Below, in pieces: positions 11,123 through 64,000 of a stretch of DNA of 64,000 nt. The notes under the pieces were generated by a model that worked only from the letters and a program-made list of their open reading frames with translations, had not been told where the DNA came from and did not search any database. Origin of the DNA: Rhynchopus sp. YZ270_cl-10 (Eukaryota); NCBI GenBank assembly GCA_964035575.1, contig OZ037836.1, positions 310,001 to 374,000 of the forward strand, written 5' to 3'. Each line of letters begins with the position of its first letter. The stretch's first letter is position 1. Position numbers and translations under genes: made by a program.

Positions 11123-12124
11123 TCACATGCACACACATTTGCGTTTGGTATCGTCCACGAGGCTACAGTTCCGCACATATTCTGACACAACACTACTCGA
11201 GCCTGAAACGTTGATGTTGATTGTATGTATTTTGCATCCATACAGGAAGTGTAGCCCAATGCGCTGAACAGTGGTCCACCCAGACAAGTCAAGTGTTTTC
11301 AACGCGCTGCAGTTGGAGAGAAAGAACGCTCCCAGATGCGTCACATTGTTCCACCCAGATAAGTCAACGGTTTGCAATGCAACGCAGTTGCAGAGGAAGA
11401 AGTCCCCCGTATGAGTCGCCTTGCTCCACCCAGACAAGTCAAGGGTTCGCAATGTGGTGCAGTAGGAGAGAAAACGAGGCAGTATTTGCGTCACATTGGT
11501 CCACCCTGAAATATCCAGTGTGGTCAATGAGGTGCAGGTGTAGAGGAATAAGTCCACTGTTTGCGTCACATTGCTCCACCCAGCCATGTCAAGGGTATGC
11601 AATGCGACGGAGTCGTAGAGGAAGTAGCGCTCAACCTGCGTCACATTGCTCCACCCAGATAAGTCAACGGTTCGCAATGCGCTGCACTCTTGAAGGAAGC
11701 TGGAGCCTATGTTGGTCACACCTGGCACACCACTGAGATCAAGTGCTTCGAACGTGGCACCCGACAAGAAGTGATTGGGGATATCAGTAACAACCTCCGC
11801 CTGCAGAAACAAATGAACCAGCTTGGGATCTGTCAGACCTTCGAACCTCTCTGCAGTGATGTCGGTCTCACCCAAGTCACGAAGAGCTGCAATGGCGTCG
11901 TACTTCTGCGACTTCGTCTTCGTCAGCACAACTGTGTCCCCAGCACTCAGCTGCGTGATGTCGTCTCCTTCGGCCAGCAGCTTCCCTCCGAAGCTCATGT
12001 CAAAGCCGTCTTCGCACAACTCTGCTGCAGTCGCCACCTTCCGCCGTATGTCCGCAGTTGTATCATCCACACCCACCTCGACTGTGTACTTCTCTCCGTC
12101 AAAGCTCTCCACACATATTTCCAT
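11123..12124 (-). CDS. UBL-LRR-CaaX protein (333 aa)
   Basis: Starts MEICVESFDGEKYTVEVGVDDT, has LDLSGWxNVT repeats and ends RKCVCM. Confidence 0.9.
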   Translation of the reverse strand: MEICVESFDGEKYTVEVGVDDTTADIRRKVATAAELCEDGFDMSFGGKLLAEGDDITQLSAGDTVVLTKTKSQKYDAIAALRDLGETDITAERFEGLTDPKLVHLFLQAEVVTDIPNHFLSGATFEALDLSGVPGVTNIGSSFLQECSALRTVDLSGWSNVTQVERYFLYDSVALHTLDMAGWSNVTQTVDLFLYTCTSLTTLDISGWTNVTQILPRFLSYCTTLRTLDLSGWSKATHTGDFFLCNCVALQTVDLSGWNNVTHLGAFFLSNCSALKTLDLSGWTTVQRIGLHFLYGCKIHTININVSGSSSVVSEYVRNCSLVDDTKRKCVCM

Positions 12125-13451
12125 GGTTTTGTGTCTCTCTGTTTTGTGCAAGTGTATCCAATTGGGGGTAAGAGTACGCAAGAGACAACAAACAGTTAGG
12201 GAGAGGTCTTTTGCTAATAAAAATGATCATCCAGATGTGGTGAAACGCAATAAACTCCACAACCCCTACAAAGATACTCTGCAAGATATTGGCGACCAAA
12301 AAGGTCTCCTATTTCAAGAAAACCCTCAAAATCCGCCAATATCTTTTGGTGGCCAAGTTATTTAGTGGGAAAGCGGTTCTTGTTGGTACAAAAAGCACAA
12401 GTACAAAAAGGTGCCCCTTGAGTGCACCAGGTGCAGTGTATCTCTCAAGAAAGTCGAACATTCCGCGCCACGCACTAACGGACGCCACCCTAAAATACAC
12501 ATGTTGAGTCGAAGGGAGGCAAAACTATATCAAAGCTTTTTGATAAAAAATGAACGAAGCACAAAAACCAGCGCGTGTGGAAGAAAAAAGAAGAGGCAAA
12601 ATATTATTTCGATTCAAAGTGGTGTTTATGTTTTGGGTACGGTGCGGAGAATAAAATCTGTTCGATAAAAGAAACGCAAGCTTTTTGTTTTATCTTGTTC
12701 AGACAAAAAGCTACTTCCCAACCAATGTGACAAAGAACCACTGCCCTATCAATTACAAGAAAACCCTCAAAATCCGCCAATATTTTTTGGTCGCCAAGTT
12801 TCTTGTCCTCCTGTAAGCTGCTTTAGTTCATATCTTTTTTGTTGCCACTGTGGAACAGTTGTGCAATCTCCACTTTTCACATTTTTTACTCATTTGATTT
12901 TTGTTCTTGGTAAAGTGGCCTCCAAATAAGTAGACTCGAAAACAAAGCCCTCTCGTGACAGTGTACCTTGGTACAATTGACCGGCTGTAGTGGGGTCGAC
13001 ACCGAACCATGCAGTCCTACATGCATTTCGTGGTTTACATCTGATATAAAACAGTGAGGGGAGAGGTCTTTTTTTTTTTTTTTTTTGAAAGCTTCGTTGT
13101 ATTAGTGTGGACACCCGAGGATGTGCTCCACTATGTGTTCCTTTTGATTTTATTATTCCTTCTTTTAAACTTCACACACAACGCTGTTTTGGTTTTTGGG
13201 CGGCACACAAGATGCCAGGTTTTTGACCAAAATATATCCGCTCCGCTTGATCAGATCTCGACCGTTTGTTGCATTGCACGCTTGGAACGTCTTGCTCAGC
13301 ACAGCTCTCCTCTCGCACCAAGTAGTAGTCTGTGCCACGGCGAGCAAGACTGCGCCCCTCTTCTTCTCCGAACTAGCAGACGCAAACAGACATACTGCCA
13401 GAGACCCTCCACCTCGGGGAGGTGCTGCCCTGCCACCAACACACCACGTCG

Positions 13452-13708
13452 TCATTGTGCGTGTCTCCGTCGCTTCTGGATTTGCTCGGGGGATTCGTCT
13501 CTGCTTCGTTTCAGACGTGATTCAACTACAAGCTTGCTCAGCTTCTTGCTATTCCTCACTTCATTGGACACAGCACTGCTGCATCCGGAAAGGTAAATGC
13601 TCGTCAACGAAGTGCATTTCGCAGCAAAAAACGTAGTTTTCATGAAAGAATGCGCCTTGATAGACGTCACATTGCTGAGTGGTGATAAATCGAGGGTGGT
13701 TAAGCTCT
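13452..13708 (-). pseudogene. 3' half of NLS-type UBL-LRR gene split by A2
   Basis: SLTTLDLSPLSNVT...KRSRDESPEQIQKRRRHAQ, resuming at the TSD. Confidence 0.88.
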
Positions 13709-13785
13709 TAAACTTGTTGACGTGACCCATCCCCACCTTCTCAGATGAACTGAGAGGTGAGAAAGGCGCCACGTGACCACCTTCG

Positions 13786-16700
13786 TTATCGCGGGGCAAA
13801 CCCGAGACGTCCCTGGGACATGTCGTGGTGCCCTTTCCCGCAACAGACCTGAGGAGACGCCAGCATCGGCAATCCGTCCTTCTTCCTCTTCCGTCCCGCT
13901 TGCACACATGCACCGCAAGCACCCCTCCCGTGGGCCACACAGTTGTGGTGCTTCTGACAGCACTGCTTCATCGACACGTTCCCCGCACCCGCACACTGTC
14001 CGCACATCGAGAAGTTATGCACCTCACATGCCTCACGCGCCTCCACACAGTCACCCAAAATAAGCTCATCACAATGGTGCGTCGCACAACACGCCGTGAT
14101 GGAGATGTTGTTGTGCTCGCAGTCCCCGCATCGCATCTTGGTGTGTATGTCACACACCCGCATGGTCCCCACCTTCCTCCTTACGTCCACACGCACAGCC
14201 GGTGTCTGCCGCCTGCGTGCCTCCTGCCGTCGAGTCTGCTCTGCCGCAACTGCAGCTATCGCAGCTCTCTTACGCACCTCCTCTGCCTGCTTCTGCTCTT
14301 CCTTCGCTTCCTTCCAGCGTTCGCTCTTTGCTGAGCGTTCTTCCGGAGTGGAAGTGTGAGCTACAACCGCGTCGTCACCCCACCTCGCCTTCGTCTTTTC
14401 TTTTTGTCGGGAGAGTGCTCTCCGCGACGTCGCCTTCTCCTGCAACTCCTTCAGGTACCCTTCAACCCCCGCCGCATGCGTCAGCACAGGTCGCACAGAA
14501 TACCCCGTCATGATCCCCGCACCCAGTTCCTGTAAGTGGTGCACCTCCCTCTTCTCCACTCCTTTCCATACGTCCCTTCCATGCGCCATCGTTTTCGCCG
14601 TCCGCATCATGGCACCAAAAGATTCTGCCCTCTTCAACACCGTCTCACCCGGTACGTCCAACCCCGAGAAGATCTCAAAGTCCAGCATGAGCTCGAGCTG
14701 CGTGATGGGGGGCGTTGTGCCATCAGGCCAACGCAATGCAGCGAGCCATGCCTTCAGCGCCCAGAAGTGGTCTTCCGTCCAGCGTGGACTCTTCTTCATG
14801 TGCTTGCTCCCCCACAGTACGTTCTCCAGCGGGTTGTAGCTCTCAAGCACTGCACCCTCCGGAGGATTCCAGCCCCAAGGAAAAAGGGATTGGCCCACCA
14901 CCGCCTGCTTCTTCTTCTTCTGCGAAAACCCATGTTCGACGTCGTACTTCTGCCTTGCCAGCGCGATGTTGACCAGCATCAGTTGCACACGTCGCACAGT
15001 CTGCTCTCTCTCCGCAACACTCAGCTCCTGCAAGAATATCGTCGGCACCAGGCCAAAGTCCAAGAAGCACGGGGGTGCGTCTTTGAGCAAAACCCGGAGT
15101 TTTCCGATGTCCTCTCCACGAATTTCGTCCCACTGCGGGCACCACCACCAAGCGTGTCTCCGGTCCTCTATCGCCTCACCACAGTATCGGCACAACGAAG
15201 TCTCCACCTCCTTGTTCCTCAGCAGCTGCACCCCCACCAACTGAGAGCCCGACAAGGCTCCGCGTATCGCGCCCGCCAGGTATCTGTCGGTCGTGCGGTC
15301 CTTCCACACTGCGTTCGTCGCCTGGCGATCCACACCTCCCTCAATGCCCTGCATTGACGGCCTCGTCGTCACTGTCAGGCGGTACGCGTGTGCACGGATG
15401 CCCTCTCTCAGCTCATGCAGCCATTTGCCCTTGTCCCACAGACGAACGTGCACCCTCAACCCGATGTGTGTGGTCCAGAAGTCGAAGCTGCTCCACCGCC
15501 ATCCGTATCGCTCCAGGTCGTCCCACAACAACTCTATCACACCCTTCTTGTGCACTTCAGTTACCCTTGGGTTGGCAACCCCAGGGTTCTCACGCCGGAG
15601 ACGTGCCAGCTCTGAAGCCCTGTCACGCCGCCTCACCTCCCGCTCCGCTCTTCGGTCATGTGCCAGCCTCCACACTTCTTCTGCTTCTCTCCGCATGCCG
15701 TCATCTTCTGTCAGTCGGAGAAAGGCCGCCATCCTCCTCTGCACAATCTCCGCTGGCGCATCAATCCCAACCGGAGATAACACATGCCACACAATGTTCA
15801 GCGTGCGCTGCTTCCTGCCCTGCCCCCAGACTGCCAGTGCTGCCCCTTGCCTCAGCGTCTCTATCGTCTGCTTCGAGAAGTCTGTCACTTCGCACCCATG
15901 CAACGCTGCCATCATTGGTCCCCTTGCGCCAATAAGTGCCTTCTCAGTGAAGGATAATGGCACACTCGAAACCCTCGTAAATACACGGTGCGCAGTAACC
16001 GCACGCTCACGCGCGATGGGCCCGAAGTTCCCCTTTCCAGCCAAAATGTCTGCTCCAACCGCCCCGAACTGCTTCTTGTCGGGGAAGAACCCGTCGCCAA
16101 GTCCAAACTTCGTCTTTGTTCCCTCCTTCGAGGTAAACCCTACGCACTTCTCTGCCTTGACCTCCATGTCCGCAGCAGTGATAAACTCCTTCGTCACCCT
16201 CGCAGCACCATGCACCTCCGCTTCCGTGTTCGCCACAGCATACACGTCGTCAGCGTACCCCATGGCGATTGCTCCGGTCCTTCTCGTCACTGCAGATCCC
16301 CACACCGCCATCAGCGCGTTCAACAGCACGACAGAAAGCGGGCATCCTTGCAGGATACCATTTGTCGTACGGAAAGCGCCTCCCACACCTACGTCTCCCA
16401 ACTTGAAGCGGCGTTCCATGGCAGTGTACGCCGCCCTCAGTGGTCCAAGAATGCGCCAGTGCGCGCCCCACTCCTCCGCCAGCGATAGCACAATCTCATG
16501 AGGTACACGATCGAAACATTTGGCGTAGTCAATCGTGAAGCCCCATACCTGGTCTGTGTCGTCACCCGACAGCACCGCCTTCTCCAGTTTGAGCGACAAA
16601 TGCCAGTACAGGTGTGCAGTGCTGTGTCCTGCTCTGAAGCCGTGCTGTTGCTCACCAATCCAGCTTTCCTGCCACTTTATCAGCCTTCGCAACCTCGCTG

Positions 16701-18552
16701 CCGCCCACAGTCTGTACACACACGAAGTAATCGTGATTGGTCGCTGCTTCAGCGGAGTGTCGTCTTCCCCTTTGGGGATGAGCGCAATGAGTGCTCTCAT
16801 CAAAGAAGGCGGCCACTCTCCCGTACACTCAATCGCATCAAACACATCTGCCAGCCTGTCGAGCAGCACCAGAGGAAGCGCCTTCAGCTCTGCCATGCGC
16901 CAACCCTCCACCCCAGCAGAAGTTTGTGTCTTCATCCTCCCCAGAGTTTGCTGCAACTCCTTCCCCGTCAGCCTGTCCATCTGCATCGCTTGTCCCTTGC
17001 CTGCGATGTCTTCTGCAAACTTCTCCCTGAACGCACCCCAGTCGGGCTCTGGCTTTTCCGCATATCGGCGAAGAATCGGCATCCACGCCTCATGCAGGAG
17101 GGTGTCCATCTCCTCAGCGTTGGCGGTGAACTTCCCATCCTCGTTCTTCAGGGCAGTCATCTTCCTGTACTGCTCGTCCTTGCAGTATTTGAAGATCGCC
17201 TTGGGAGCATTGTGCCATGCATCCCGTAGGCGCTGCCGCCAGTCCTCCAGTCGCTTCCGCTTCACTCGGTCCGCAAGCGTTGACACCTTCACTCGCACGG
17301 CTCTGCACAGATCCACCAAAGCCTCCTCGCTAGGCATATCCTGTTGCAGTGAGTCGTCGTCCAGCAGAACACGCAGTTCCTTCCGCGCCTTGCTCCAACA
17401 ATTGCACACGTCATGTGGCGGCACACCACCGTTGCTCCTCACGTACCACAGTCGACATTCTTCCAGCCTGCCCACGTTCTTCGTCAGCCTTCTCTGGCTC
17501 ACCGTCAGAGCGTCCCCTTCCTTGCTCTGCTTCGCAGTCCGGTGCTTCGGTGTGGGGTCGAACGTTCTGCCTCTACCGCAATACGCCTTCGTCGGGCCCT
17601 CAATCTCGCCTTCGCACGCCTGCAGCAAGAAGTCCTCTGCCCACTTGTTCCACTGGATCCACCTATCCTGAGGGTGTTGAAGCGCCCCCCACTGCAGCTC
17701 CTTGTTCGCAAACGCCTTTTGTGCCGTCTTCACACCCTGTCCACACTTCTCCAAAGGGAACTGCTTCGGCAGAGTGTACGCGAGCACGATCTGCCTGTAC
17801 GCACCTACATCCAGCGCTATCTCTACCGGTCTGTGCTGCGGGAGCCCAGAGTCGTGGACAACCTTCACAGACGACAGCCCTGTGCACGCAGCTCGGTTCA
17901 GCAGAACGTAATCGAGCCTCTTGCGGATCTCCTTGCCCTCCTTCACTGAGAAGTAGGTGTTCTCCGGGGTCGTCCCAAGCACCCTTGCGTGCTCTTCGGC
18001 AGTGTCCTTCCACCATCCTGTGTCTAGCGTAGCAGCCAGCACACCTGATTTCCCGGGACCTGCGTTGAAGTCCCCACCAATCACCCCAGGAATGTCACCA
18101 AGCTCTGCAGCAGCCTCCATCACCTCGCCAAGTATTTTCTCCCTAGCCTCCGGGTCCGCCGACGGCGCGTAGACGGAGGTCACGTCGATCCACTCGTTGC
18201 CTTTGCCGTACGCCACCTTCGCCTTCACCCATCGCGTTGAGTCCCAGAGGTTCTTTTCCAAGGTTGAGGAGGGCGGGCTCGTGAGCACAGGTATTCCCTC
18301 TTGCACCAGAATCGCAACACCACCAGATTTCGCTTCTTCGGCCGACCTCCATTCCGGCAACTCCTTACCCCACACCACCTGCCAACCCTGCTTGCGGTAC
18401 TCGATGGAGAGGCGCTTCTGCGTCGTCACGGTGCACTTTGTCTCTTGTACCAGAACAACTTGAGCATCCTCCGCAACCTTCAGCAGAGAACTCCCGCCTG
18501 TCTGCAGCGCCGTCACATTGCTGCACACTATCTTTAGTGGGGCAAGGCCCAC
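13786..18552 (-). CDS. A2 ORF2: APE + RT + CCHC knuckle + Cys/His repeats (1588 aa, GTG start)
   Basis: APE motifs VQET, GGDFNA, RLDYVL and QHRPV. RT motifs IDYAKCFDRV, QGCPLS and YADD. Knuckle CRYC..H..C. Confidence 0.95.
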   Translation of the reverse strand: MGLAPLKIVCSNVTALQTGGSSLLKVAEDAQVVLVQETKCTVTTQKRLSIEYRKQGWQVVWGKELPEWRSAEEAKSGGVAILVQEGIPVLTSPPSSTLEKNLWDSTRWVKAKVAYGKGNEWIDVTSVYAPSADPEAREKILGEVMEAAAELGDIPGVIGGDFNAGPGKSGVLAATLDTGWWKDTAEEHARVLGTTPENTYFSVKEGKEIRKRLDYVLLNRAACTGLSSVKVVHDSGLPQHRPVEIALDVGAYRQIVLAYTLPKQFPLEKCGQGVKTAQKAFANKELQWGALQHPQDRWIQWNKWAEDFLLQACEGEIEGPTKAYCGRGRTFDPTPKHRTAKQSKEGDALTVSQRRLTKNVGRLEECRLWYVRSNGGVPPHDVCNCWSKARKELRVLLDDDSLQQDMPSEEALVDLCRAVRVKVSTLADRVKRKRLEDWRQRLRDAWHNAPKAIFKYCKDEQYRKMTALKNEDGKFTANAEEMDTLLHEAWMPILRRYAEKPEPDWGAFREKFAEDIAGKGQAMQMDRLTGKELQQTLGRMKTQTSAGVEGWRMAELKALPLVLLDRLADVFDAIECTGEWPPSLMRALIALIPKGEDDTPLKQRPITITSCVYRLWAAARLRRLIKWQESWIGEQQHGFRAGHSTAHLYWHLSLKLEKAVLSGDDTDQVWGFTIDYAKCFDRVPHEIVLSLAEEWGAHWRILGPLRAAYTAMERRFKLGDVGVGGAFRTTNGILQGCPLSVVLLNALMAVWGSAVTRRTGAIAMGYADDVYAVANTEAEVHGAARVTKEFITAADMEVKAEKCVGFTSKEGTKTKFGLGDGFFPDKKQFGAVGADILAGKGNFGPIARERAVTAHRVFTRVSSVPLSFTEKALIGARGPMMAALHGCEVTDFSKQTIETLRQGAALAVWGQGRKQRTLNIVWHVLSPVGIDAPAEIVQRRMAAFLRLTEDDGMRREAEEVWRLAHDRRAEREVRRRDRASELARLRRENPGVANPRVTEVHKKGVIELLWDDLERYGWRWSSFDFWTTHIGLRVHVRLWDKGKWLHELREGIRAHAYRLTVTTRPSMQGIEGGVDRQATNAVWKDRTTDRYLAGAIRGALSGSQLVGVQLLRNKEVETSLCRYCGEAIEDRRHAWWWCPQWDEIRGEDIGKLRVLLKDAPPCFLDFGLVPTIFLQELSVAEREQTVRRVQLMLVNIALARQKYDVEHGFSQKKKKQAVVGQSLFPWGWNPPEGAVLESYNPLENVLWGSKHMKKSPRWTEDHFWALKAWLAALRWPDGTTPPITQLELMLDFEIFSGLDVPGETVLKRAESFGAMMRTAKTMAHGRDVWKGVEKREVHHLQELGAGIMTGYSVRPVLTHAAGVEGYLKELQEKATSRRALSRQKEKTKARWGDDAVVAHTSTPEERSAKSERWKEAKEEQKQAEEVRKRAAIAAVAAEQTRRQEARRRQTPAVRVDVRRKVGTMRVCDIHTKMRCGDCEHNNISITACCATHHCDELILGDCVEAREACEVHNFSMCGQCAGAGNVSMKQCCQKHHNCVAHGRGACGACVQAGRKRKKDGLPMLASPQVCCGKGHHDMSQGRLGFAPR

Positions 18553-18560
18553 GGTCGTGA

Positions 18561-21446
18561 TTAATACGACCCTCCTTCTCGCCTCTGGTCCGTGTCGCGG
18601 GGGCGGCTGTTCTCGTCCGTCGTCGTATCCTTCTTCTCCTCACCGCCATCTGCACGACGATCTTGAGCGTTCCTGGCCTTGTCCTTGGCCTCGCGAGCTG
18701 CCTTCTTCAGCGCCTCGTTCTCCTCCGTGAGCCGCTTGCTCTCCGCTGCCAGCTGCACATTCTGCTCCTTGCACTGCTGCATCGTCTCCTTCATCTCAGC
18801 ACAGTCTGCTCTGAGCTGTTCCATGCCAAGAGGCTGCGGCGGCTGCTCGACTGGTGCCGACTGCTGCGGTTGTCCCATCATCCGCTTCTGTGCCTCCAAC
18901 ATTTCCTTCTGCTGTTCCATGACGCCCTTCATCATCTCCCGCAATTCCTTCATTTCCTTCTTCATCAGCTCGATCTCTTCCTGCGCTGCTGATGAAGCTG
19001 CGGGAGGTGCCGGAGCCGCCGGTGCCCCTGTTGCAGGGTGGGGCCGAGCTGCAGGTGGTGCGTATCCCCTCGCCTTAGCCGCCCACGTGCCAGCGCCGCT
19101 CTCTGCTGCTCCTTGCCTCGGTACTGGGAACTGCGCCAGAGGGAAACCCCACGGATTCGCACCCACCTTCTGCACACGACGCCCTTCCTTCACCGCACAC
19201 ACCGTCAACACCAATCCACCCACCTCCAGCACCCCTTCTGTGCTCGGGCACGGCACATCCGACGTAACCGTCCACTTGTGCCCTCGCGACAGCACCTTCA
19301 CCGTCCAGCTCGCCTCTCTCGCCAGCCCCTCACACAACAGCTGGACCGACGTGTTCGCCGGAATTCCCCCAATCTCGTATCTGTGTCCCTGCACGACGAC
19401 GTCCTCCTGCACAAGAAGCCTCTTCGCAGCCTCCAAGTCCCCCTTCATGACACGCACCGCGTAGCCCCCTTCCCCTACGGCGAGTCCGCGCACGCTATCC
19501 TCCAGGTTCTCCTCCGCAAGGTCCAGCCGTGCCAGAGCAGACTCCAGCGGTTCCGCCTTCCACAACAACCCACAGTCCCCGTACTCCTTTGCCTGGAAGA
19601 GGTGCCGCACAAACACCCCTTCCCGTCCGCTTCTCTTCAGCATGGCGCACACCATGTCCTCCGTCACGTCCACAGACATCTCCATCCATCCTCCTTTCTC
19701 CAAGCCGCGTCCACACCGCACCCCCTGCAACCCGTACCACCGACGCATGCGTTGCTCTCCCTTTGTGCGTCCTTCTCCCGCCCTGATGAGGGTCCGGCCC
19801 ATCAGCGTAACCAGCTTGCTCGTGAACGCAGTACTCTCCTCCACCGGCTTCACCACCTTGTCCAGGTCCGACGTCATGGTGCCCAGCCAGACTTCCTCCA
19901 TACGTGCGCCTCGGTCGGTCCGCACTGCCACCTTCACCTTCCTTGTACGTGTCGCACCTGTGCACTTCGCGCGTGAGACAAGCACCACCTGGGGGAGTGT
20001 GTGCAGCAATTCCAACCCCTGCACGAGTTCACCCGACCACGCAACTGCCGCCACCTGCGTCACCCCTTCCACAATATCAGGTACTGCCTCCCACACCGGA
20101 ATTTTCCACCCTGGAGAGTCCAAGACTAAGTTCAGCGGGGCCTCCGCATCCGTGCGCACCGATGGCGCCTTCTTCCTGCCCGTCACAGCCGTGCCCGGCA
20201 CGTGCAACTGCGGTTGCCCCACTGCGCACATGATCTCCTCGCCCGCCTGCAGCCCTGCCGACGTCACTGCACCGTAGTGCACTCCTCCCTCGTACGCCAG
20301 AACGATGTCTGACTCCCGGAACGCCAGGTTCGCCTTCTCCGCTGACCCCTCCTTCAATGCCCCGTCCGTTTGCCCGTCAATCACTGTAGCCCTCAGCACA
20401 TTCCCCGGCCCGACGTCCATCACCACAACACGGGTCCGCATCGCCCTCGCAATCGCGTGGAGACACAGATGGTCCCCCCACGTCCCCAGCTGCGCCATCG
20501 CGGCCAGATACCCCTCTGCCCCCGCTTCCCCTTCGATGAATGGGCTGTAAAACGCCGCATCCTTCCTCATCACCCCCACCGCCAGCTTGCGGAACCCTGC
20601 ATGCCCGTTCGGGGACGACTCCGCAGACCACGCCACTGATCGGAAGAGACAGTCCCCTTTGCCCCCGCACTCCTCCCATCTCATACCCCAAGGCTCCAAT
20701 AACCCCTTGATCCCTGGCTGCGTCGTCGGCGCCTGCTTCTCCGCCGTGCATCCCCTTGCGGCGTAGCTACCACCTGCCACCAGCGTCGCGCTCGACTCCG
20801 CTGCCGTCATCCCCTGTCCCGCCCTCGCACTGTGCAACACGGAGACCTGTATCCCCCTCGTCTTGAGGTTGGATACCATCGATCTCACCTTCTCCAGTCG
20901 TGGCCTGAGCAGCTGCGAGTCGCACGGTTGCCCCGCGGATACCTGCTTCCACACCTGCAGATGCGACACCCACACCCGTGCATGCACCCCTTTCTTGTAG
21001 GATCCGTCCGTGACACCTCGCAGCCCCAAGAGGATTCCTTCGTATGCCGCCTCCGCCTTCGTCACTCCTGCCAGTCGCTTCGTCAACTCCCAGTGCGTCA
21101 CCGGCTCGTCCTCCGTTGCTTCACGTGCCAGCGCACACAGCCCCGTCGCGTCCCGCACCTTCTCGCCAGGCGCGACCCCAACGAAGATGTCGGGGTCTCT
21201 CTTCTCGTCGTCGTCAGCTGCACGCTTCATGCCTCCAGCACCCGGGTACAGCAGTTGGTGCCCAATAGCCCTGTGCGCCAGCTCAGCTGCCGACGTCGTC
21301 TCCTCGCTGCACCTGCAGTTCCAGGAATCGCAACACACAGGCGCCGGCGGGTGTGGGGTCCATTTGGCCGATCCGTGTGACGGATCGTTGCCCGGGATAC
21401 TCCGCGTGGAGGCTGGACGTGACTTCGACACCATGTACGAAAACAT
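18561..21446 (-). CDS. A2 ORF1 (961 aa), variant with diverged N-terminal half
   Basis: Same architecture as A1 ORF1, with OTU KGDCLFRS...WGDH...HYGAV retained. Confidence 0.88.
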   Translation of the reverse strand: MFSYMVSKSRPASTRSIPGNDPSHGSAKWTPHPPAPVCCDSWNCRCSEETTSAAELAHRAIGHQLLYPGAGGMKRAADDDEKRDPDIFVGVAPGEKVRDATGLCALAREATEDEPVTHWELTKRLAGVTKAEAAYEGILLGLRGVTDGSYKKGVHARVWVSHLQVWKQVSAGQPCDSQLLRPRLEKVRSMVSNLKTRGIQVSVLHSARAGQGMTAAESSATLVAGGSYAARGCTAEKQAPTTQPGIKGLLEPWGMRWEECGGKGDCLFRSVAWSAESSPNGHAGFRKLAVGVMRKDAAFYSPFIEGEAGAEGYLAAMAQLGTWGDHLCLHAIARAMRTRVVVMDVGPGNVLRATVIDGQTDGALKEGSAEKANLAFRESDIVLAYEGGVHYGAVTSAGLQAGEEIMCAVGQPQLHVPGTAVTGRKKAPSVRTDAEAPLNLVLDSPGWKIPVWEAVPDIVEGVTQVAAVAWSGELVQGLELLHTLPQVVLVSRAKCTGATRTRKVKVAVRTDRGARMEEVWLGTMTSDLDKVVKPVEESTAFTSKLVTLMGRTLIRAGEGRTKGEQRMRRWYGLQGVRCGRGLEKGGWMEMSVDVTEDMVCAMLKRSGREGVFVRHLFQAKEYGDCGLLWKAEPLESALARLDLAEENLEDSVRGLAVGEGGYAVRVMKGDLEAAKRLLVQEDVVVQGHRYEIGGIPANTSVQLLCEGLAREASWTVKVLSRGHKWTVTSDVPCPSTEGVLEVGGLVLTVCAVKEGRRVQKVGANPWGFPLAQFPVPRQGAAESGAGTWAAKARGYAPPAARPHPATGAPAAPAPPAASSAAQEEIELMKKEMKELREMMKGVMEQQKEMLEAQKRMMGQPQQSAPVEQPPQPLGMEQLRADCAEMKETMQQCKEQNVQLAAESKRLTEENEALKKAAREAKDKARNAQDRRADGGEEKKDTTTDENSRPRDTDQRREGGSY

Positions 21447-21486
21447 TGTTTATATTCTTTCTTTTTGTGTACGTTGTGTGTATCCC
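21357..21486 (-). ncRNA. HDV-like ribozyme candidate at A2 5' end
   Basis: Same fold as A1. J4/2 is GCCAAA and one terminal P2 pair is lost. Confidence 0.78.
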
Positions 21487-22316
21487 TCGAGGGTGGTTAA
21501 GCTCTGGCATCCGGTAAGAAAGTCGCAATCAATCTGCGTCACATTGTTGAGGGGTGATAAATCCAGGCTCGATAAGTTCTTGCAGTCCGCAAGGAAGCAC
21601 GCACCGACCTGCGTCACGTCGCTGAGTGGAGATAAATCGATGCTGGTTAAGCTCGTGCAGTTGGCAAGAAAGCTGTGATCAATCTGCGTCACGTTGCTGA
21701 ATGCTGACAAATCGATGTTGGTTAAGCTGATGCAGAGGAATAGGAACCAATGACCAACATGCGTCACATTGCTGAGCAGAGATAAATCGATAGTGGCTAA
21801 GCTAGTGCAGCAGTAAAGAAATCCTTTACCAATGTGCGTAACATTGCCCAACCCAGAGAGGTCAATACTTGTCAACGAGGTGCACTCCTGCAGGAAGTTG
21901 TCTCCAATGTGAGTCACAATGGACTCAGCACTGAGATCAAGTCTCGTCAACGAAGTGCCTGTCAAGAACCCAGCAGGAATGACAGTCGCAACCTCCGCCT
22001 GCAGAAGCAAACACGCAACCTCAGGATCATCCACATCCTCCAACGCCTCTGCCGTGATGTCTGTCACACCCAACGCATGAAGCTCTGCAATGGCTTCGTA
22101 CTTCTGTGTTTTTGTGAGGATGATTGTGTCACCAGCACTCAGCTGCGTCATGTCCGCTCCTTCTCCCATCGCTTCGTCTCCGAAACTCATGCAAAAGCCG
22201 TCTTCAGGCAACCCCATTGCAGACGCCACCTTCCGCCGCAAGCCCTCCACTGTGTCATCTGCACCCACCTCGACTGTGTGCTGATTCGTGTCGAAACCCT
22301 TGATGTTCAGGTCCAT
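21487..22316 (-). pseudogene. 5' half of NLS-type UBL-LRR gene split by A2
   Basis: MDLNIKGFDTNQ UBL plus LDLSPL LRRs to GCQSLTTL, then reads into the element (EGYTQRTQKERI*). Confidence 0.9.
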
Positions 22317-38820: not shown

Positions 38821-38828
38821 GGTCGTGA

Positions 38829-41693: not shown

Positions 41694-41733
41694 TGTTTAT
41701 ATTCTTTCTTTTTGTGTACGTTGTGTGTATCCC
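41604..41733 (-). ncRNA. HDV-like ribozyme candidate at A3 5' end
   Basis: Same sequence and fold as the A1 candidate. Confidence 0.8.
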
Positions 41734-46498: not shown

Positions 46499-46565
46499 GG
46501 GGGCCCGTTTTCGATGCATGCACCCCTATCCGAGATAGGTGATACAATACATCGTGGGGGTGATA

Positions 46566-51551: not shown

Positions 51552-51563
51552 CGCACCACACCG

Positions 51564-54500: not shown

Positions 54501-55238
54501 CTCTGCCTCTACCTCTCTACCCTGCGGCACAAGACAGACCCCCTCCGACTTATCCACCACCTCCCCCCACGGCACAAGCGTCGATCCCACCCACTCCGAT
54601 TGCAGCAATGTCAGCGCTGCCGTCGTCTTCTTTTTCCCTCCCCCCTGGGTGAAGCCCCCCTCCGTCCCCGCCTTCGCATCGTTTCGCGGTTGCGGCACGG
54701 TGTACGGCTTCTCCGTCACCTCCAACGCACCCCCCACCATCGCCTTGCGGGCCCGGTCTTCGGCGGCTTCTTCCCCCGTGCTCGTGGGGAGGACGCACAG
54801 GTAGTGGCATGCGTCCACGTACGCCACCGTCACCGCTGCACCGCTGCCCTTCTCCTTCGGGTGCACCTTCAGCACACGCACCTCCCCATCCTTCACCGAG
54901 AAGGCATACACCTCCCGCATCAGCACCTCCGCCAACGCCTTCAGGGTCAGGTGGTCCCCCCAGGACCCCTGCTTCGCCATCGCCGAGCAGTACCTCCGGT
55001 AGGCGGACGGTCCTCCGTCAACGTGCTCACCCCAATTCTCCGCTTCCCGTTCCAACACCCCCACCGCCATCTCCCTCAGCCCCCCGTGCGCCGTGGCGTC
55101 TCCGTGCACAGCCATCGAGACCGCCTTAAATTGGCAGTCTCCGTTCCCCCCTGCGTCCTTTACCCGCATGTCGAAGCCCCTTAGGTATTTCTGCAGCACC
55201 CCCTTTTCCCCCCCTTGGCCACCTGCCCCTCCGCACAT
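51564..55238 (-). CDS. B ORF1: OTU protease + RRM-like + Ala/Glu-rich helical repeat
   Basis: The first ATG after the ribozyme is at 55238. OTU motifs GNGDCQFKAV, WGDH and CHY. The central region resembles A ORF1. Confidence 0.85.
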   Translation of the reverse strand: MCGGAGGQGGEKGVLQKYLRGFDMRVKDAGGNGDCQFKAVSMAVHGDATAHGGLREMAVGVLEREAENWGEHVDGGPSAYRRYCSAMAKQGSWGDHLTLKALAEVLMREVYAFSVKDGEVRVLKVHPKEKGSGAAVTVAYVDACHYLCVLPTSTGEEAAEDRARKAMVGGALEVTEKPYTVPQPRNDAKAGTEGGFTQGGGKKKTTAALTLLQSEWVGSTLVPWGEVVDKSEGVCLVPQGREVEAEGKIARTPGVTWVGFGSFPKSGGEKMQCPMGKQGNGGKVNGAASTAVYVVGRLRPGRGNGGKKASAAVQLVTVFVTMRPTAGQAQDLVSAGKKMRAEVGCNLNRPPLWQEGKLISSVADVREDVSERCLKQSGKGGVFFRMRREQSEHLPVVWLVDGVGLEEAQGLATRMGGWGVAARYESLGIRVKKEDQERANAALMQEGKAPEGRYVVSGFPSGTSGEAVMESLAGAGWTVTPLRRLEGWRWVVGAKLDPPTWAMDMEGNGKGLLIRKDGHKEGGGRATAPGPGAKQKAKVHTAHASGPTFGARTAPAATAQHNRGTGPDYGWVSWAAHARQAATAPAAAKPPTTTSRTPPPTTTTTTKQRTPKGQPPMTSPAPSPEDAGEKWAELERRMEERLDRLVGERLQTLLQETVASLTAQLREERVEQRKEQQVWMAAMLEQVGKLCSMPKEATAAAREDAAAAAAALRQEEEEAKAAAAAALRQREEEVKAAAAAALRQREEEVKAAAAAALRQREEEAKAAAAAALKQREEEVKAAAAAALRQREEEVKAAAAAALKQREEEVKAAAAAALRQEEEVAAAAALKQREEEVKAAAAAALRQREEEEKAAAAAVLKQREEADAAAAILWQQEEEAAAAAAAVAAENARQREGEAAATTAPTVAVPTAAPTTPEMQMADELLDTLPDGNAEDVMSPEPATMAGKRIRAGNGSSEVEELSPRRRRRRADTIRGKPGVVVEVAEARNRSRSAPPRDTSPTADVAGAGDVEVVVASPKKKKKRRNIVAAEKRREALRAAQEEAAAKKERRAAAVQAQREQEQGENAGAGTPAPTTPDAEARMDDADMALPVQTSPDCAAVEEDAETSPAPRVPVAPPAVTLAGKREDRSESGETVALLSPPRRMRTEVPAKEQAEGNEKNEESYGNAVLEAGDSMEYREEGGNGAAIPVTVVKVAGDVIEIAFRPVQGLDNRLVGRNTLRDVGR
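52560..53140 (-). repeat. 45-bp coding tandem repeat (REEEVKAAAAAALRQ) in B ORF1
   Basis: About 10-11 degenerate units visible in DNA and protein. Confidence 0.92.
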
Positions 55239-55275
55239 CGCGTCGAGGCTGCCCCCCGCCGCCGTCCTTCTTCCC

Positions 55276-55359
55276 CGCGCTTTAGCAGACGCCTCCCCCC
55301 ATAGAGGAGGGGGGCGTCTCCCGAGGGTACCCCGTGGAGGCGCGTCGTCTCTCACCCTC
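55276..55359 (-). ncRNA. HDV-like ribozyme candidate at B 5' end
   Basis: P1 GAGGGTG/TACCCTC, CC-TCCACGG-GG, GG, P4 AGACGCC../..GGCGTCT, J4/2 GCTAAA, P2 CGCG/CGCG. Confidence 0.68.
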
Positions 55360-55575
55360 TTTCTGCGTTTTTGTGAGGTTGATTGTGTCACCAGCACTCA
55401 GCTGCGTCATGTCCGCTCCTTCTCCCATCGCTTCGTCTCCGAAACTCATGCAAAAGCTGTCTTCAGGCAACCCCATTGCAGACGCCACCTTCCGCCGCAG
55501 GTCCTCCACTGTGTCATCTGCACCCACCTCGACTGTGTGCTGATTCGCTTTGAAATCCTCGAAGTGCACGTCCAT
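55360..55575 (-). pseudogene. 5' (UBL) piece of doubly interrupted UBL-LRR gene
   Basis: MDVHFEDFKANQ...LSAGDTINLTKTQK, then element B. Confidence 0.9.
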
Positions 55576-57345: not shown

Positions 57346-58428
57346 TCACATGAACACACATTTGCACTTGGAATCGTCCACGAGGCTACCGCTACGGCTC
57401 TGCACACATTCTGACACAACACTGCTCGATCCTGTAATGTTGATGCTGCTTGTACGTATTTTGCATCTTTTTAGGAAGCTTGGACCAATGTGCTGAACAG
57501 TCGTCAACCCAGATAGGTCAAGTGCTTTCAATGCGGTGCAGTTGTAGAGAAAGTTCCTCCCAATTTGCGTCACATTGTTCCACCCAGAAATATCCAGTGT
57601 GGTCAATGAGGTGCAGTTGTAGAGAAAGTGCTCATCAACCCGCGTCACATTGTTCCACCCAGACAAGTCAAGGACTTGCAATGCTGTGCAGTAGCAGAGA
57701 AAGAAGTACCCTAACTGCCTCATGTTGCTCCCAGACATGTCAAGGGTGGTCAATGCGTTGCAGTGAGCGAGGAACAATTCCTCTATCTGCGTCACGTTGT
57801 TCCACCCAGACAAGTCCAGTGTGGTCAATGAGCAGCAGGAATAGAGGAACTTGTGTCCAACTGTTCTTAGGTTGATCCATCCAGACAAGTCAACAGTTGT
57901 CAACGTGCGGCAGTTTGAGAGAAAGCCTTCGCAAAGTTGCGTCACATTGCTCCATCCAGATAAATCAACAGTACGCAATGAGCTGCAGTCGGCGAGGAAA
58001 CAATTCCTGATTACAGCCACACCCGACACACCACTGAGATCAAGTGCTTCGAACGTGCCACGTCTCAGGCAGTCGGAGGGAATCTCAGTAACAACCTCCG
58101 CCTGCAGAAACAAATGACTCAGCTTGGGATCTGTCAGACCTTCGAACCTCTCTGACGTCAGCTCTCTCTCACCCAAGACACGAAGAGCTGCAATGGCGTC
58201 GTCCTTCTGCGACTTTGCCTTCTTCGTCAGCACAACTGTGTCCCCAGAACTCAGCTGCGTGATGTAGTCTCCTTCGGCCAGCAGCTTCCCTCCGAAGCTC
58301 ATGTCAAAGCCGTCTTCGCACAACTCTGCTGCAGACGCCACCTTCCGCCGTATGTCCGCAGTTGTATCATCCACACCCACCTCCACTGTGTACTTCTCTC
58401 CGTCAAAGTTCTTCACACATATTTCCAT
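57346..58428 (-). CDS. UBL-LRR-CaaX protein (360 aa)
   Basis: Intact ORF ending KCKCVFM. Confidence 0.92.
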   Translation of the reverse strand: MEICVKNFDGEKYTVEVGVDDTTADIRRKVASAAELCEDGFDMSFGGKLLAEGDYITQLSSGDTVVLTKKAKSQKDDAIAALRVLGERELTSERFEGLTDPKLSHLFLQAEVVTEIPSDCLRRGTFEALDLSGVSGVAVIRNCFLADCSSLRTVDLSGWSNVTQLCEGFLSNCRTLTTVDLSGWINLRTVGHKFLYSCCSLTTLDLSGWNNVTQIEELFLAHCNALTTLDMSGSNMRQLGYFFLCYCTALQVLDLSGWNNVTRVDEHFLYNCTSLTTLDISGWNNVTQIGRNFLYNCTALKALDLSGLTTVQHIGPSFLKRCKIRTSSINITGSSSVVSECVQSRSGSLVDDSKCKCVFM

Positions 58429-59170: not shown

Positions 59171-60301
59171 TCATTGTGCGTGTCTCTGTCGTTTGTGGGC
59201 TTGCTCGGGGGATTCGTCTCTGCTGCGTTTCGGACGTGCTTCAACCACAAGATGCTTAAGTTCCTCGCTATTCCTTACTGTGCTGGACACAGCACTGCTG
59301 CAGCCGGAGAGGTAAATACTCTTCAACGAAGTGCAGCTGGTAGCAAAACCCGAACCTGATATCATACAGGTTTGTACGTACTGAACCTTGTTGAGTGGCG
59401 AGAGATCCAGGGTGGCTAAAGATTTGCAGTCGTCAAGAAAGTATCTGCCAATCTGCGTAACGTTCTTGAGTGGCGAGAGATCCAGGGTGGTTAAAGAGTT
59501 GCAGGCGTGAAGAAAGTAATCGCCAATCATCGTAACGTTGTTGAGTGGCGAGAGATCCAGGGTGGTTAAAGAGCTGCATTCGTTAAGAAAGCGACTGCCA
59601 ATCACCGTCACGTGGTTGAGTGGTGTCAGATCCACGGTTGTTAAAGAGTTGCAGCCGGAAAGAAAGAAACTCTCAATCCTCGTAACGTTGAGTGGTAGAG
59701 CCAGGGTGGTTAAAGAGTTGCAGTGGGAGAGAAAGCCAGAGCCAATCGCCGTCACGTGGTTGAGTGGTGTCAGATCCAGGGTGGTTAAAGAGCTGCAGGC
59801 GAAAAGAAAGTGACTGCCAATCACCGTCACATTGCTCAACCCAGAGAGGTCAATAGTTGTTAACGAGGTGCCCTCGAGGAAGTTGTCTCCAATCTGTGTC
59901 ACAATGGACACAGCACTGAGATCAAGGCGCGTTACCCATGCCTTCCTCAAGAACTCATCAGGAATGACAGTCGCAACCTCCGCCTGCAGAAGCAAACACG
60001 CCACCTCAGGATCCTCCACATCCTCCAACCTCTCTGGTGTGATGTTTCTCTCACCCAACGCATGAAGTGCTGCTATGGCTTCGTACTTCTGCGTGTTTGT
60101 GAGGTTGATTGTGTCACCAGCACTCAGCTGCGTCATGTCCGCTCCTTCTCCCATCGCTTCGTCTCCGAAACTCATGCAAAAGCTGTCTTCAGGCAACCCC
60201 ATTGCAGACGCCACCTTCCGCCGCAAGTCCTCCGCTGTGTCATCTGCACCCACCTCGACTGTGTGCTGATTCGCTTTGAAATCCTCGAAGTGCACGTCCA
60301 T
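59171..60301 (-). CDS. UBL-LRR protein with bipartite NLS-like tail (376 aa)
   Basis: Intact ORF ending KRSRDESPEQAHKRQRHAQ. Confidence 0.92.
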   Translation of the reverse strand: MDVHFEDFKANQHTVEVGADDTAEDLRRKVASAMGLPEDSFCMSFGDEAMGEGADMTQLSAGDTINLTNTQKYEAIAALHALGERNITPERLEDVEDPEVACLLLQAEVATVIPDEFLRKAWVTRLDLSAVSIVTQIGDNFLEGTSLTTIDLSGLSNVTVIGSHFLFACSSLTTLDLTPLNHVTAIGSGFLSHCNSLTTLALPLNVTRIESFFLSGCNSLTTVDLTPLNHVTVIGSRFLNECSSLTTLDLSPLNNVTMIGDYFLHACNSLTTLDLSPLKNVTQIGRYFLDDCKSLATLDLSPLNKVQYVQTCMISGSGFATSCTSLKSIYLSGCSSAVSSTVRNSEELKHLVVEARPKRSRDESPEQAHKRQRHAQ

Positions 60302-61741: not shown

Positions 61742-62974
61742 TCACATGCACACACATTTGCACTTCGTATCTTCTTTGACCACTTCAGCGGCGTGGCTAA
61801 TGTCGTTGGTATCGCCCATGAGGTTACTGCCATGTACATTGCTACCACTACGGCTCTTCACATATTCTGGCACAACACTGCTGGATCCGGTGACGTTGAT
61901 GCTGCATTTAGGTATTTTGCATCCTTCCAGGAAGCCTTGCCCAATGTGCTGCACATTCCTCCACCCAGACAAGTCAAGGGTTTGCAATGCGCTGCAGTTG
62001 GAGAGAAAGTTCTTCCCAATTTGCGTCACATTGTTCCACCTAGAAATACCCAGTGGGGTTAATGAGCTGCAGTTGGAGAGAAAGTCGTCCCCAACCCGCG
62101 TCACATTCCTCCACCCAGACAAGTTAAGTGTTCGCAATGCGATGCAGTTGGAGAGAAAGTTCCTCCCAATTTGCGTCACATTGTTCCACCAAGAAATATC
62201 CAGTGTGGTCAATGCGCTGCAGTTGGAGAGAAAGTAGTCATCAACCCGCGTCACATTGTGCCACCCAGAAACATGAAGTGCGGTCAATGAGATGCAGTAG
62301 TAGAGAAAGTAGTCACCAACCCGCATCACATTGTTCCACCAAGAAATATCCAGTGTGGTCAGTGAGCTGCAGTTGGAGAGAAAGGACTCATCAACCCGAG
62401 TCACATTGTTCCACCCAGATAAGTCAAGTGTTCGCAATCCGGTGCAGTTGGAGAGAAAGAAGGACTCAATGTGCGTGACGTTGCTCCACCCAGATAAATC
62501 AGCAGTGTGCAATGGCCAGTACCCTTGCAGGAAACTCTCGCGTATTTTAGTTACACCTGACACACCACTGAGATCAAGTTCTTTGAACGTGCCACGTACT
62601 TTCGAACGTGCCAAGAATTGATTTGGGATCTCAGTAACAACCTCCGCCTGCAGAAACAAATGAATCAGCTTGGGATCTTCCAGACCTTTGAATCTCTCTG
62701 GCGTCAGCTCTCTCTCACCCAAGTCACGAAGAGCTGCAATGGCGTCGTCATTCCGAGACTTCGTCTTTTTCGTCAGCACAACTGTGTCCCCAGCACTCAG
62801 CTGCGTGACGTAGTCTCCTTCGGCCAGCAGCTTCCCTCCGAAGCTCATGTCAAAGCCGTCTTCGCACAACTCTGCTGCAGACGCCACCTTCCGCCGTATG
62901 TCCGCAGTTGTATCATCCACACCCACCTCGATTGTGTACTTCTCTCCGTCAAATCTCTCCACACATATTTCCAT
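61742..62974 (-). CDS. UBL-LRR-CaaX protein
   Basis: Starts MEICVERFDG, has about 10 LRRs and ends KCKCVCM. Confidence 0.92.
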   Translation of the reverse strand: MEICVERFDGEKYTIEVGVDDTTADIRRKVASAAELCEDGFDMSFGGKLLAEGDYVTQLSAGDTVVLTKKTKSRNDDAIAALRDLGERELTPERFKGLEDPKLIHLFLQAEVVTEIPNQFLARSKVRGTFKELDLSGVSGVTKIRESFLQGYWPLHTADLSGWSNVTHIESFFLSNCTGLRTLDLSGWNNVTRVDESFLSNCSSLTTLDISWWNNVMRVGDYFLYYCISLTALHVSGWHNVTRVDDYFLSNCSALTTLDISWWNNVTQIGRNFLSNCIALRTLNLSGWRNVTRVGDDFLSNCSSLTPLGISRWNNVTQIGKNFLSNCSALQTLDLSGWRNVQHIGQGFLEGCKIPKCSINVTGSSSVVPEYVKSRSGSNVHGSNLMGDTNDISHAAEVVKEDTKCKCVCM

Positions 62975-63549
62975 GGTTTCGTGTCTCTCTGTTTTGTGCA
63001 GGTATTTTGGGTGGGGCAAGAAGAAACAACAACAATCAGGTAGAGGATACGTAGGACAATGCCTTGGCATTTATGTAGGATAATATTGTAACGACTTTGT
63101 GGATGTGGCCGTATTTTTGCATGACAGACTTCCAGATTGAACTGGGAAGCAGAAACCCCAAACCCTCCCAGACCCAACGGTCTAACTAACGTTGCATTAC
63201 AGTGTGTGGGGGAGAAGTGAGGAACACGAGAACGTCTCGTGGTGCGCCAACACCGGGTGAAGTGGTACGGGAGTGCTATTTACGATGCCTCCGTTTTGGT
63301 TCGCTCGTATTAGTGTACGCGATTTTCTTTCCTTACTTCAAAAACTCTCTCTTTTTTTCCTGGAAGAAAACAGTTTTCGATAAAAAGCTCCTGCGTCGGT
63401 TTTCTCTTTCACAGGATGCAAAAATATAACAAAACAAAGTGTGCGTAAAAAAACATCACCTGTTTCCTTTATTGAGGAGGTGACGTGATGTACAATTCAT
63501 TCTCTGAACAGCGTAACGAGCAGCTGGCCTCTCGAAAGATGCACATGCC

Positions 63550-64000
63550 TCACATGCACACACATTTGCACTTGGTATCGTCCATCATGAGGCGACCGCT
63601 AGTTACATATTCTGACACAACTCTGCTCGATCCTGTGACGTTGATGCTGCTTGTAGGTATGTTGCATCCTTTTAGGGTGCCTGTCCCAACGTGCGACACA
63701 CTCGTCCACCCAGACAAGTCAAGTGTGGTCAATGCGCTGCAGTTGGACAGGCACGAACGTCCAATCTGCGAAACATTGCTCCACCCAGACAAGTCCAGTG
63801 TCGTTAACGAGGTGCAGCCGCCGAGGAAGTAGTCCTCAACCTGCGTCACATTGCTCCACCCAGATAAGTCCAGTGTTTGCAATGCGCTGCACTCGGAGAG
63901 GAAACAGATCCCAATCCGCGTCACATTGTTCCACCTAGAAATACCCAGTGTGGTCAATGAGCTGCAGTTGGAGAGAAAGTAGTCATCAACCCGCGTCGCA
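63550..64000 (-). CDS. LRR-CaaX protein, 3' part (5' end beyond window)
   Basis: LDLSGW repeats ending DTKCKCVCM. Confidence 0.88.
   Translation of the reverse strand, partial: ATRVDDYFLSNCSSLTTLGISRWNNVTRIGICFLSECSALQTLDLSGWSNVTQVEDYFLGGCTSLTTLDLSGWSNVSQIGRSCLSNCSALTTLDLSGWTSVSHVGTGTLKGCNIPTSSINVTGSSRVVSEYVTSGRLMMDDTKCKCVCM

What the first reader, a model, noticed from the sequence alone, without database searches (positions are those of the whole stretch)
11123..64000. UBL-LRR receptor-like family sorted by alternative C-terminal address tags
Seen: a shared about 70-aa UBL-like N-terminus, a helical linker and variable numbers of 25-aa repeats LxxLDLSxxxNVTxIGxxFLxxC with variable x positions. 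SGW-type repeats go with a terminal CaaX motif, usually with an upstream Cys (CKCVCM/CVFM). SPL-type repeats go with KR-x10-KRxR (KRSRDESPEQIQKRRR), a canonical bipartite NLS pattern. Different UBL subtypes are combined with different LRR/tail types (compare 24212 and 28726). Inference: a diversifying set of membrane and nuclear sensors or proteasome/ligase adaptors, possibly for defence. The repeats resemble BspA-type LRRs.
Basis: partly seen in the sequence, partly recalled or inferred. Interest (0 to 1): 0.78.

Follow-up and report, generated by a model that had tools for sequence, protein, structure and literature searches.

The report
LRR gene family targeted by retrotransposons
A protist carries a large family of ubiquitin-like plus leucine-rich-repeat proteins whose subfamilies end in tags that likely send them to membranes or the nucleus, and jumping genes land again and again at the same codons inside these genes, which suggests that this coding family serves as their preferred target.

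Summary
The family is real. The window holds 13 loci; searches returned over 200 relatives. The N-terminus models as a ubiquitin fold (TM 0.87), followed by 25-residue BspA/TpLRR repeats. Tails follow subfamilies: GW-type ends in CaaX (76 of 89; none has an NLS), PL-type mostly in a bipartite NLS-like tail. The rule is not strict: 13 PL-type proteins end in CaaX and a third clade has a hydrophobic tail. Domain shuffling is rare (2 clear chimeras of 169). Variable residues lie off the concave strand; positive selection is only suggested. LINE A and a 613-bp short element insert at one codon of the LRR unit (5 of 5 in the window; 13 more outside, 1 off-target). LINE B inserts at one codon after the UBL (12 junctions, 9 truncation points). 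Both LINEs carry an OTU protease domain. Closest precedents: trypanosome RHS genes and Entamoeba BspA-CAAX proteins. Localisation, binding and expression are untested. The scan's look-ups showed no earlier report of this family.

The parts
1..6831 (-). LINE A copy 1 (ORF1 3924-6791 with OTU; ORF2 APE-RT; 3' end outside the window), inserted at the LRR site
   Evidence: 99% identical to copy 3
6832..7435 (-). 5' half of a PL-type UBL-LRR gene, cut by LINE A copy 1
9384..9758 (-). 3' half of a GW-type gene ending CKCVCM
9760..10374 (-). About 613-bp non-coding element at the LRR site, 20-bp target duplication; 3' end resembles that of LINE A
10375..10480 (-). LRR remnant upstream of the short element; the rest of the gene is replaced by a 7-bp tandem array
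11123..12124 (-). Intact GW-type UBL-LRR gene, 333 aa, ends CVCM
13452..13708 (-).
13709..21486 (-). LINE A copy 2, full length, 19-bp target duplication; ORF1 18561-21446 (OTU), ORF2 APE-RT ending at 13786
21487..22316 (-). 5' half of a PL-type gene
24212..25474 (-). PL-type gene, open frame, second basic cluster of the tail lost
27676..28185 (-). GW-type 5' half joined to a duplicated Hsp70 3' end (26713-27676 repeats 29777-30734, 95.6%)
28726..29715 (-). Intact chimera: PL-clade UBL on GW-clade linker, LRR and CVCM tail
33661..33976 (-). 3' half of gene 41697, ends CKCVFM
33977..41733 (-). LINE A copy 3, full length, 18-bp target duplication
41734..42491 (-). 5' half of a GW-type gene, close paralogue of intact 57346
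43625..43877 (-). 3' part of a PL-type gene with NLS-like tail
43878..45799 (-). LINE A copy 4, 5'-truncated, 17-bp exact duplication, same LRR register
45800..46498 (-). Middle part of the same PL-type gene, 98% identical to intact 59171
46499..55359 (-). LINE B, 8.9 kb, 20-bp target duplication at the UBL-linker boundary; ORF1 51564-55238 (OTU), ORF2 46566-51437 (2A-like motif, APE, RT)
55360..55575 (-). UBL-coding 5' part of the gene split by LINE B and LINE A copy 4
57346..58428 (-). Intact GW-type gene, 360 aa, ends CKCVFM; the modelled protein
59171..60301 (-). Intact PL-type gene, 376 aa, bipartite NLS-like tail
61742..62974 (-). Intact GW-type gene, 410 aa from the conserved Met, ends CKCVCM
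63550..64000 (-). 3' part of a GW-type gene, ends CKCVCM; 5' part outside the window

Best explanation
This is a tandemly expanded family of UBL-BspA-type LRR proteins that likely act as intracellular adaptors placed at membranes or in the nucleus by clade-specific tails, and two LINE families plus a short element are inserted repeatedly at fixed codons of these genes, likely because their endonucleases recognise those sites. Shown: architecture, tails by clade, variable loop positions, target duplications and recurring insertion registers. Inferred for the proteins: the variable LRR face binds diverse ligands; the constant, acidic, non-conjugatable UBL recruits one fixed partner of the ubiquitin system; CaaX is prenylated; KR-x10-KRxR binds importin alpha. 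Inferred for the elements: insertion by target-primed reverse transcription at a degenerate site, roughly TGC-N6-YT-N7-YT-N-G in the LRR unit for A and the codons after QLSAGD-x5 for B. Hundreds of redundant genes with 4-9 repeats each would give a large, low-cost target, as rDNA does for R1 and R2.
For: Fold. Tails. Variable positions 14, 17, 18, 21, 22 reach 2.6-3.8 bits, against 0.1-0.75 at the D and S of the concave strand. Target duplications of 18, 19, 20, 17 bp (A, A, short element, truncated A) and 20 bp (B), each matching its own host repeat. Five of five A-type insertions lie within 2 nt of one position of a 75-nt unit (5e-7 by chance), all in LRR DNA (about 23% of host DNA; 6e-4), all sense. 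Outside the window, 13 more junctions fall after C-x-x-L-x-x-[LVIA]. A search with the element's own read-through peptide, blind to the host gene, gave 5 of 6 hits in family genes. For B, 11 of 17 proteins truncated near the UBL end continue into LINE B in sense, at 9 different truncation points plus 2 full-length 5' ends, and 3 more begin with B's 3' end at the matching place.
Against: One A insertion (P0222) is in an unrelated gene. The outside evidence is predicted proteins, mostly found with family queries; intergenic insertions would be invisible, so the genome-wide share of on-target copies is unknown. Six of 17 truncations at the B site did not map to B (3 tails too short, 3 no match). 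No RNA, localisation or binding data. dN/dS is near saturation, the positions were picked after seeing the data, and close-paralogue counts (15:6, 13:3, 6:4, 14:2 nonsynonymous:synonymous) do not separate selection from relaxation in broken copies.
Confidence: 0.62

Rival explanations
1. The LINEs have only a loose local preference and are spread genome-wide; family genes collect insertions because they are redundant, and a hot spot arises as in trypanosome RHS genes.
For: Off-target P0222. A-site sequences differ at many positions. RHS precedent; a reference title there speaks of relative site specificity of L1Tc.
Against: No A or B copy in the roughly 23 kb of non-LRR host DNA of the window. 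Tolerance explains survival in the family but not a register fixed to 1-2 nt. 5 of 6 host-blind hits are family genes.
Confidence: 0.22
2. The recurring junctions descend from a few old insertions copied by segmental duplication and gene conversion.
For: The array shows duplications, for example 96-98% identical paralogue blocks. The 3' part beyond A copy 4 differs more from 59171 (14 of 83 codons nonsynonymous) than the middle part (6 of 232), which hints at recombination between element copies.
Against: Each target duplication matches a different host repeat, in both GW and PL clades. ORF2 regions of copies 2 and 3 are 99-100% identical over the first 4.2 kb while their host genes belong to different clades. 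B junctions show 9 different 5' truncation points. Close uninterrupted paralogues exist (57346, 59171).
Confidence: 0.04
3. The proteins are not sensors: they are a nearly neutral or dosage-driven expansion of scaffold proteins, with loop variation merely tolerated.
For: Concave strand conserved, unlike classical LRR receptors. Six of 13 loci are broken. dN/dS evidence is weak.
Against: Many UBL positions are 95-100% conserved across 213 proteins and the tails are kept. Distant members add B-box and coiled-coil-like regions in front, as in TRIM-type proteins (recalled).
Confidence: 0.25
4. The CaaX members are surface-exposed adhesins or prey receptors like Entamoeba BspA proteins, not intracellular adaptors.
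For: One CAAX-bearing Entamoeba BspA protein was reported on the cell surface (PMC2843621). Best fold matches are bacterial surface LRR proteins.
Against: The conserved start is the UBL, with no hydrophobic leader. Prenyl groups anchor to intracellular membranes (PMC5349171). The sister clade carries an NLS-like tail.
Confidence: 0.1

Closest known systems
Retrotransposon Hot Spot (RHS) family of Trypanosoma with ingi/RIME
   Same: A protein-coding multigene family with a fixed insertion site used by an APE-type LINE and its short partner, leaving pseudogenes in two halves (PMC7563717, passages).
   Different: RHS has one site per gene and one element pair. Here there are at least two sites used by two unrelated LINEs, with a third site suggested. 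One site is a degenerate coding repeat present several times per gene. The LINEs have two ORFs and an OTU domain; ingi has APE, RT and RNase H (PMC12278014). The host proteins are unrelated.
Entamoeba BspA-like proteins with C-terminal CAAX; Trichomonas TvBspA
   Same: Large protist families of TpLRR proteins; several Entamoeba members end in CAAX (PMC2843621; PMC5349171).
   Different: N-terminal UBL, NLS-like tails and a 25-residue unit. 'ubiquitin' occurs 0 times in PMC2843621. No Trichomonas member has a CAAX box.
Target-specific LINEs of the R1 and Tx1 clades (APE type)
   Same: APE endonuclease and a fixed site in a multicopy sequence.
   Different: [quoted passage not shown] The clade of A and B was not determined.
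Ubiquitin-domain plus DUF285 (BspA-like) clusters in the ESM Atlas
   Same: UBL joined to a BspA-like repeat (scores 0.84 and 0.81).
   Different: Different repeat family; scores under 0.9 are leads only; no alignment made.
FBXL2/FBXL20 F-box LRR proteins with CaaX (recalled)
   Same: N-terminal adaptor, LRR and prenylation tail; 6o60_C appears weakly in the fold search (E 1e-3).
   Different: No F-box hit here; the LRR class is TpLRR.

Membership tests
Ubiquitin-like (beta-grasp) domain | Beta-grasp fold | tested here: met
   Model versus ubiquitin TM 0.87, rmsd 1.5; profile hits
Conjugatable ubiquitin-like modifier | C-terminal diglycine | tested here: not met
   No GG after the last strand in the alignment of 213 UBLs
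Rad23/Dsk2-type proteasome shuttle UBL | Intact Leu8-Ile44-Val70 patch | tested here: not met
   Position 44 is Ser 81% or Gly 11%, position 68 (Val70 equivalent by eye) Thr 91%; binding itself not tested
BspA/TpLRR proteins | TpLRR repeats and fold | tested here: met
   LRR_5 above cut-off in 7 of 7; 6mlx TpLRR among top fold hits; unit is 25 aa
CaaX-prenylated proteins | Cys fourth from the C-terminus, X = M or S | tested here: met
   CVCM 65, CSVS 12 of 219
CaaX-prenylated proteins | Actual prenylation and membrane location | not testable with these tools
   Needs labelling and imaging
Classical bipartite NLS | KR, 9-12 spacer, 3 of 5 basic | tested here: met
   89 of 222 proteins by pattern; import not testable
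Diversifying immune LRR receptors | Positive selection on the concave beta-sheet | tested here: not met
   Positions 1-8 dN/dS 0.30-0.36 (partly fixed by the search pattern); variation on the loop face
APE-type non-LTR retrotransposon | APE plus RT, target duplications, 5' truncations | tested here: met
Target-specific non-LTR retrotransposon | Recurrent insertion at one position of a multicopy sequence | tested here: met
Target-specific non-LTR retrotransposon | Most genomic copies lie at that site | tested here: inconclusive
   5 of 6 host-blind hits; no genome held
R1, Tx1 or Ingi clade | RT phylogeny | not tested
RHS family | RHS protein domain with ATP/GTP motif | tested here: not met
   No RHS Pfam hit on 7 family proteins

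The most novel reading that the evidence does not exclude
A protein-coding receptor family has become an rDNA-like niche that several LINE lineages partition by site, and the two sides are in conflict: nuclear and membrane UBL-LRR proteins are a ubiquitin-linked surveillance repertoire, while the LINEs knock these genes out by precise insertion and carry OTU proteases to undo ubiquitin-based restriction. LINE A's endonuclease reads a highly degenerate coding repeat to within one base.
Probability: 0.12. Interest if true: 0.88.

Novelty: new variant of a known kind. Interest (0 to 1): 0.64.

Why it matters
Target-specific LINEs are listed mainly for RNA genes, telomeres, microsatellites and transposons; RHS is the coding-family precedent I found. 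Here several elements share one coding family at separate sites, and one keeps codon register in a repeat that varies strongly in sequence. That makes a testable case of how an APE endonuclease recognises degenerate DNA and of how retroelements drive turnover of a diversifying family. The family itself is a candidate intracellular receptor repertoire in a protist, split between membrane and nucleus.

Tried and rejected
No genome is held for the window, so no genome-wide census of insertion sites. No RNA holder listed. Contigs laid on A copy 2 showed the element and the family as many-copy in 4 of 4 runs but did not list flanks at the element ends; flanks of other copies remain unseen. No relatives of the N-terminal region in viral contigs or JGI metagenomes, none of A ORF2 in JGI metagenomes. 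Source names of proteins could not be looked up, so taxonomic range is open. The N-terminal-only model was poor (pLDDT 49) and its fold search gave nothing at Z 5 or more; a UBA-like or F-box-like identity for the three-helix linker is unresolved. An RNase H-like stretch in A ORF1 (recalled resemblance) found no support in Pfam or PDB sequences. Rfam: no match. Hsp70 against PDB shows only a eukaryotic cytosolic Hsp70; euglenozoan, likely diplonemid, origin rests on recalled resemblance and single-strand intronless gene order. Free shuffling of modules rejected (the tree is a quick one on 173 rows, proteins with element-derived or unclassified tails left out). Literature searches with no hit: Diplonema papillatum + leucine-rich repeat; retrotransposon + OTU domain + non-LTR + ORF1; diplonemid/leucine rich repeat/ubiquitin-like/BspA, 3 of 4 terms. 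One search gave only a Helentron paper. The original RHS paper was not held. No supplements were read; those of PMC10161547 may list LRR expansions. Earlier-finding look-ups by place and by sequence were blank.
Full report
Setting. The window is eukaryotic (cytosolic Hsp70 at 30429-32273). All long ORFs of the family, Hsp70 and the LINEs lie on the minus strand, and the family genes have no introns. A euglenozoan, likely diplonemid, origin is my inference from recalled Hsp70 resemblance and this gene order, which fits the co-transcribed clusters described for Diplonema papillatum (PMC10161547; abstract and passages); it was not tested. Retroelements fill 33,764 of 64,000 bases.

Observation. 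The window holds 13 family loci: 6 whole and uninterrupted (11123, 24212, 28726, 57346, 59171, 61742), 1 running off the right end, 5 split by retroelements, and 1 cut by a duplicated Hsp70 3' end. Pfam gives ubiquitin and BspA LRR_5 on 7 of 7 scanned. The model of 57346 has mean pLDDT 93; its top fold matches are bacterial BspA-type LRRs, Treponema TpLRR and ubiquitin at TM 0.87. Two searches returned 1,261 and 573 hits, of which the best 120 each were listed, giving 219 distinct proteins. By hand count about 88 sit on a contig of the same length as the window's own proteins, and 38 contig lengths occur. Whether all come from one assembly is not shown, and the sample is biased to the two query types.

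Tails. Of 222 proteins (one, P0222, is not a member), 89 are GW-type: 76 end in a CVCM-like CaaX, 7 in element-derived tails, 6 in other ends, none in an NLS. Of 124 PL-type, 85 have the full bipartite pattern, 10 a shortened one, 12 end in CSVS, 1 in CVLQ, 5 in element tails and 11 otherwise. Of 9 unclassified, 4 have hydrophobic tails and 5 NLS-like tails. On a quick tree of the UBL plus linker (173 rows), tail type changes 4 times, against a minimum of 3 and a shuffled mean of 65. Two proteins, 28726 (P0207) and P0200, join a PL-clade UBL to a GW-clade linker and tail; one more is divergent; 166 of 169 are concordant. So address tags mark clades, membrane tags likely arose more than once, and shuffling is rare.

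Domains. The UBL is acidic (median charge -10), lacks diglycine and has Ser or Gly at ubiquitin's Ile44, yet many positions are 95-100% conserved. That fits a fixed partner but not the standard Ile44 contact. In 334 GW and 519 PL repeat units the concave-strand D and S are conserved, while positions 14, 17, 18, 21 and 22 reach 2.6-3.8 bits; 17-22 lie in the loop after the short second strand. Pairwise dN/dS over 26 GW and 28 PL window units is 1.58 and 1.24 at these sites, 0.36 and 0.30 on the strand, 0.21 and 0.09 in the core. These values are near saturation, the pairs are not independent, and the pattern used to find units fixes part of the core, so positive selection is suggested only. Distant members carry B-box regions in front (5 of 16 proteins scanned).

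Retroelements, site A. LINE A (7.8 kb; ORF1 with OTU, ORF2 with APE and RT) occurs four times, and a 613-bp non-coding element with a similar 3' end once. Four of the five have both ends in the window, with duplications of 19, 18, 17 and 20 bp, each matching its own host repeat. All five 5' junctions fall one or two bases into the Asp codon of L-x-x-L-D, in sense, in both GW and PL genes. Chance estimates are 5e-7 for the register and 6e-4 for all being in LRR DNA. Close uninterrupted paralogues exist for two of them (57346, 59171). Among 222 proteins, 12 carry element-derived tails: 2 are window genes, 9 are other family genes at the same register, and 1 (P0222) is an unrelated protein. The representative search added P0225, P0301, P0259 and P0227 at the same register (the last two are diverged A-like elements with weak matches). 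The one search that was blind to the host gene gave 6 hits: 5 family genes (1 from the window) and P0222.

Retroelements, site B and beyond. LINE B (8.9 kb; OTU in ORF1; a 2A-like GDVEEHPGP motif ahead of APE, label recalled) sits after the last UBL strand with a 20-bp duplication. Its ORF2 is about 29% identical to A's (via P0286). A profile search of the UBL plus linker (565 hits, best 150 listed) returned 35 proteins truncated within that region. I checked the 17 that break near the UBL end: 11 continue into LINE B in sense within one codon of the window's junction, 2 from B's 5' end and 9 from different internal points; 6 did not map. Three others start with B's 3' end and continue into the linker. 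P0306 is an in-frame UBL-ORF1 fusion. Seven further proteins break at one place in the linker into two recurring foreign tails not present in the window, suggesting a third site; no DNA was available for it. The OTU Cys and His motifs are intact in 4 of 4 ORF1 copies.

Mechanism. Inferred for the proteins: a variable LRR face captures ligands, the UBL hands them to a fixed partner, and the tail sets membrane or nuclear location. Inferred for the elements: target-primed reverse transcription at degenerate sites, with a redundant gene family as a safe target. The main rival is a loose preference plus tolerance, which I cannot exclude without the genome.

Comparison. RHS genes of trypanosomes have a hot spot for ingi and RIME (PMC7563717, passages), so a coding family as LINE target is known. 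Entamoeba BspA proteins with CAAX are known (PMC2843621 and PMC5349171, passages). The list of targets in PMC4640811 (passages) has no coding repeat. OTU domains are reported for Helentrons (PMC4067079, passages); searches found none for LINEs in this library. PMC12278014 and PMC12621601 were read as passages. Searches found no paper on this family; subscription journals, Repbase and supplements were not seen.

Verdict. The family is a new variant of protist BspA families; its partition by several site-specific LINEs is the more surprising part. Interest 0.64.

Noticed in passing
window 10480-11073: About 85 near-perfect copies of a 7-bp unit replace the 5' part of an LRR gene, starting just after the stop of gene 11123.
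   Followed up: no
window 26713-27676 and 29777-30734: The 3' end of Hsp70 and its downstream DNA is duplicated and joined out of frame to an LRR gene at a short shared sequence.
   Followed up: partly
window 30429-32273: Cytosolic Hsp70 of 614 aa inside the array, ending without the EEVD motif (motif recalled).
   Followed up: no
window 18120-18570: LINE A ORF2 is open back across the ORF1 stop, but the APE start has no ATG; this suggests frameshifting or reinitiation.
   Followed up: partly
window 18561-21446 versus 38829-41693: A copies 2 and 3 have nearly identical ORF2 but clearly different ORF1 N-terminal halves: two ORF1 types on one ORF2.
   Followed up: partly
window 51290-51330: 2A-like peptide motif ahead of LINE B's APE domain.
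   Followed up: no
proteins P0212, P0252, P0263, P0284, P0356: B-box region fused ahead of UBL-LRR or linker-LRR.
   Followed up: partly
proteins P0250, P0255, P0256, P0269, P0278, P0283, P0354; also P0315, P0348, P0203: Recurring foreign tails and heads in the linker and late UBL point to at least one more site-preferring element.
   Followed up: partly
window about 12930-13050: A very high-copy short repeat in the intergenic DNA, seen as extreme depth and many loose ends.
   Followed up: no
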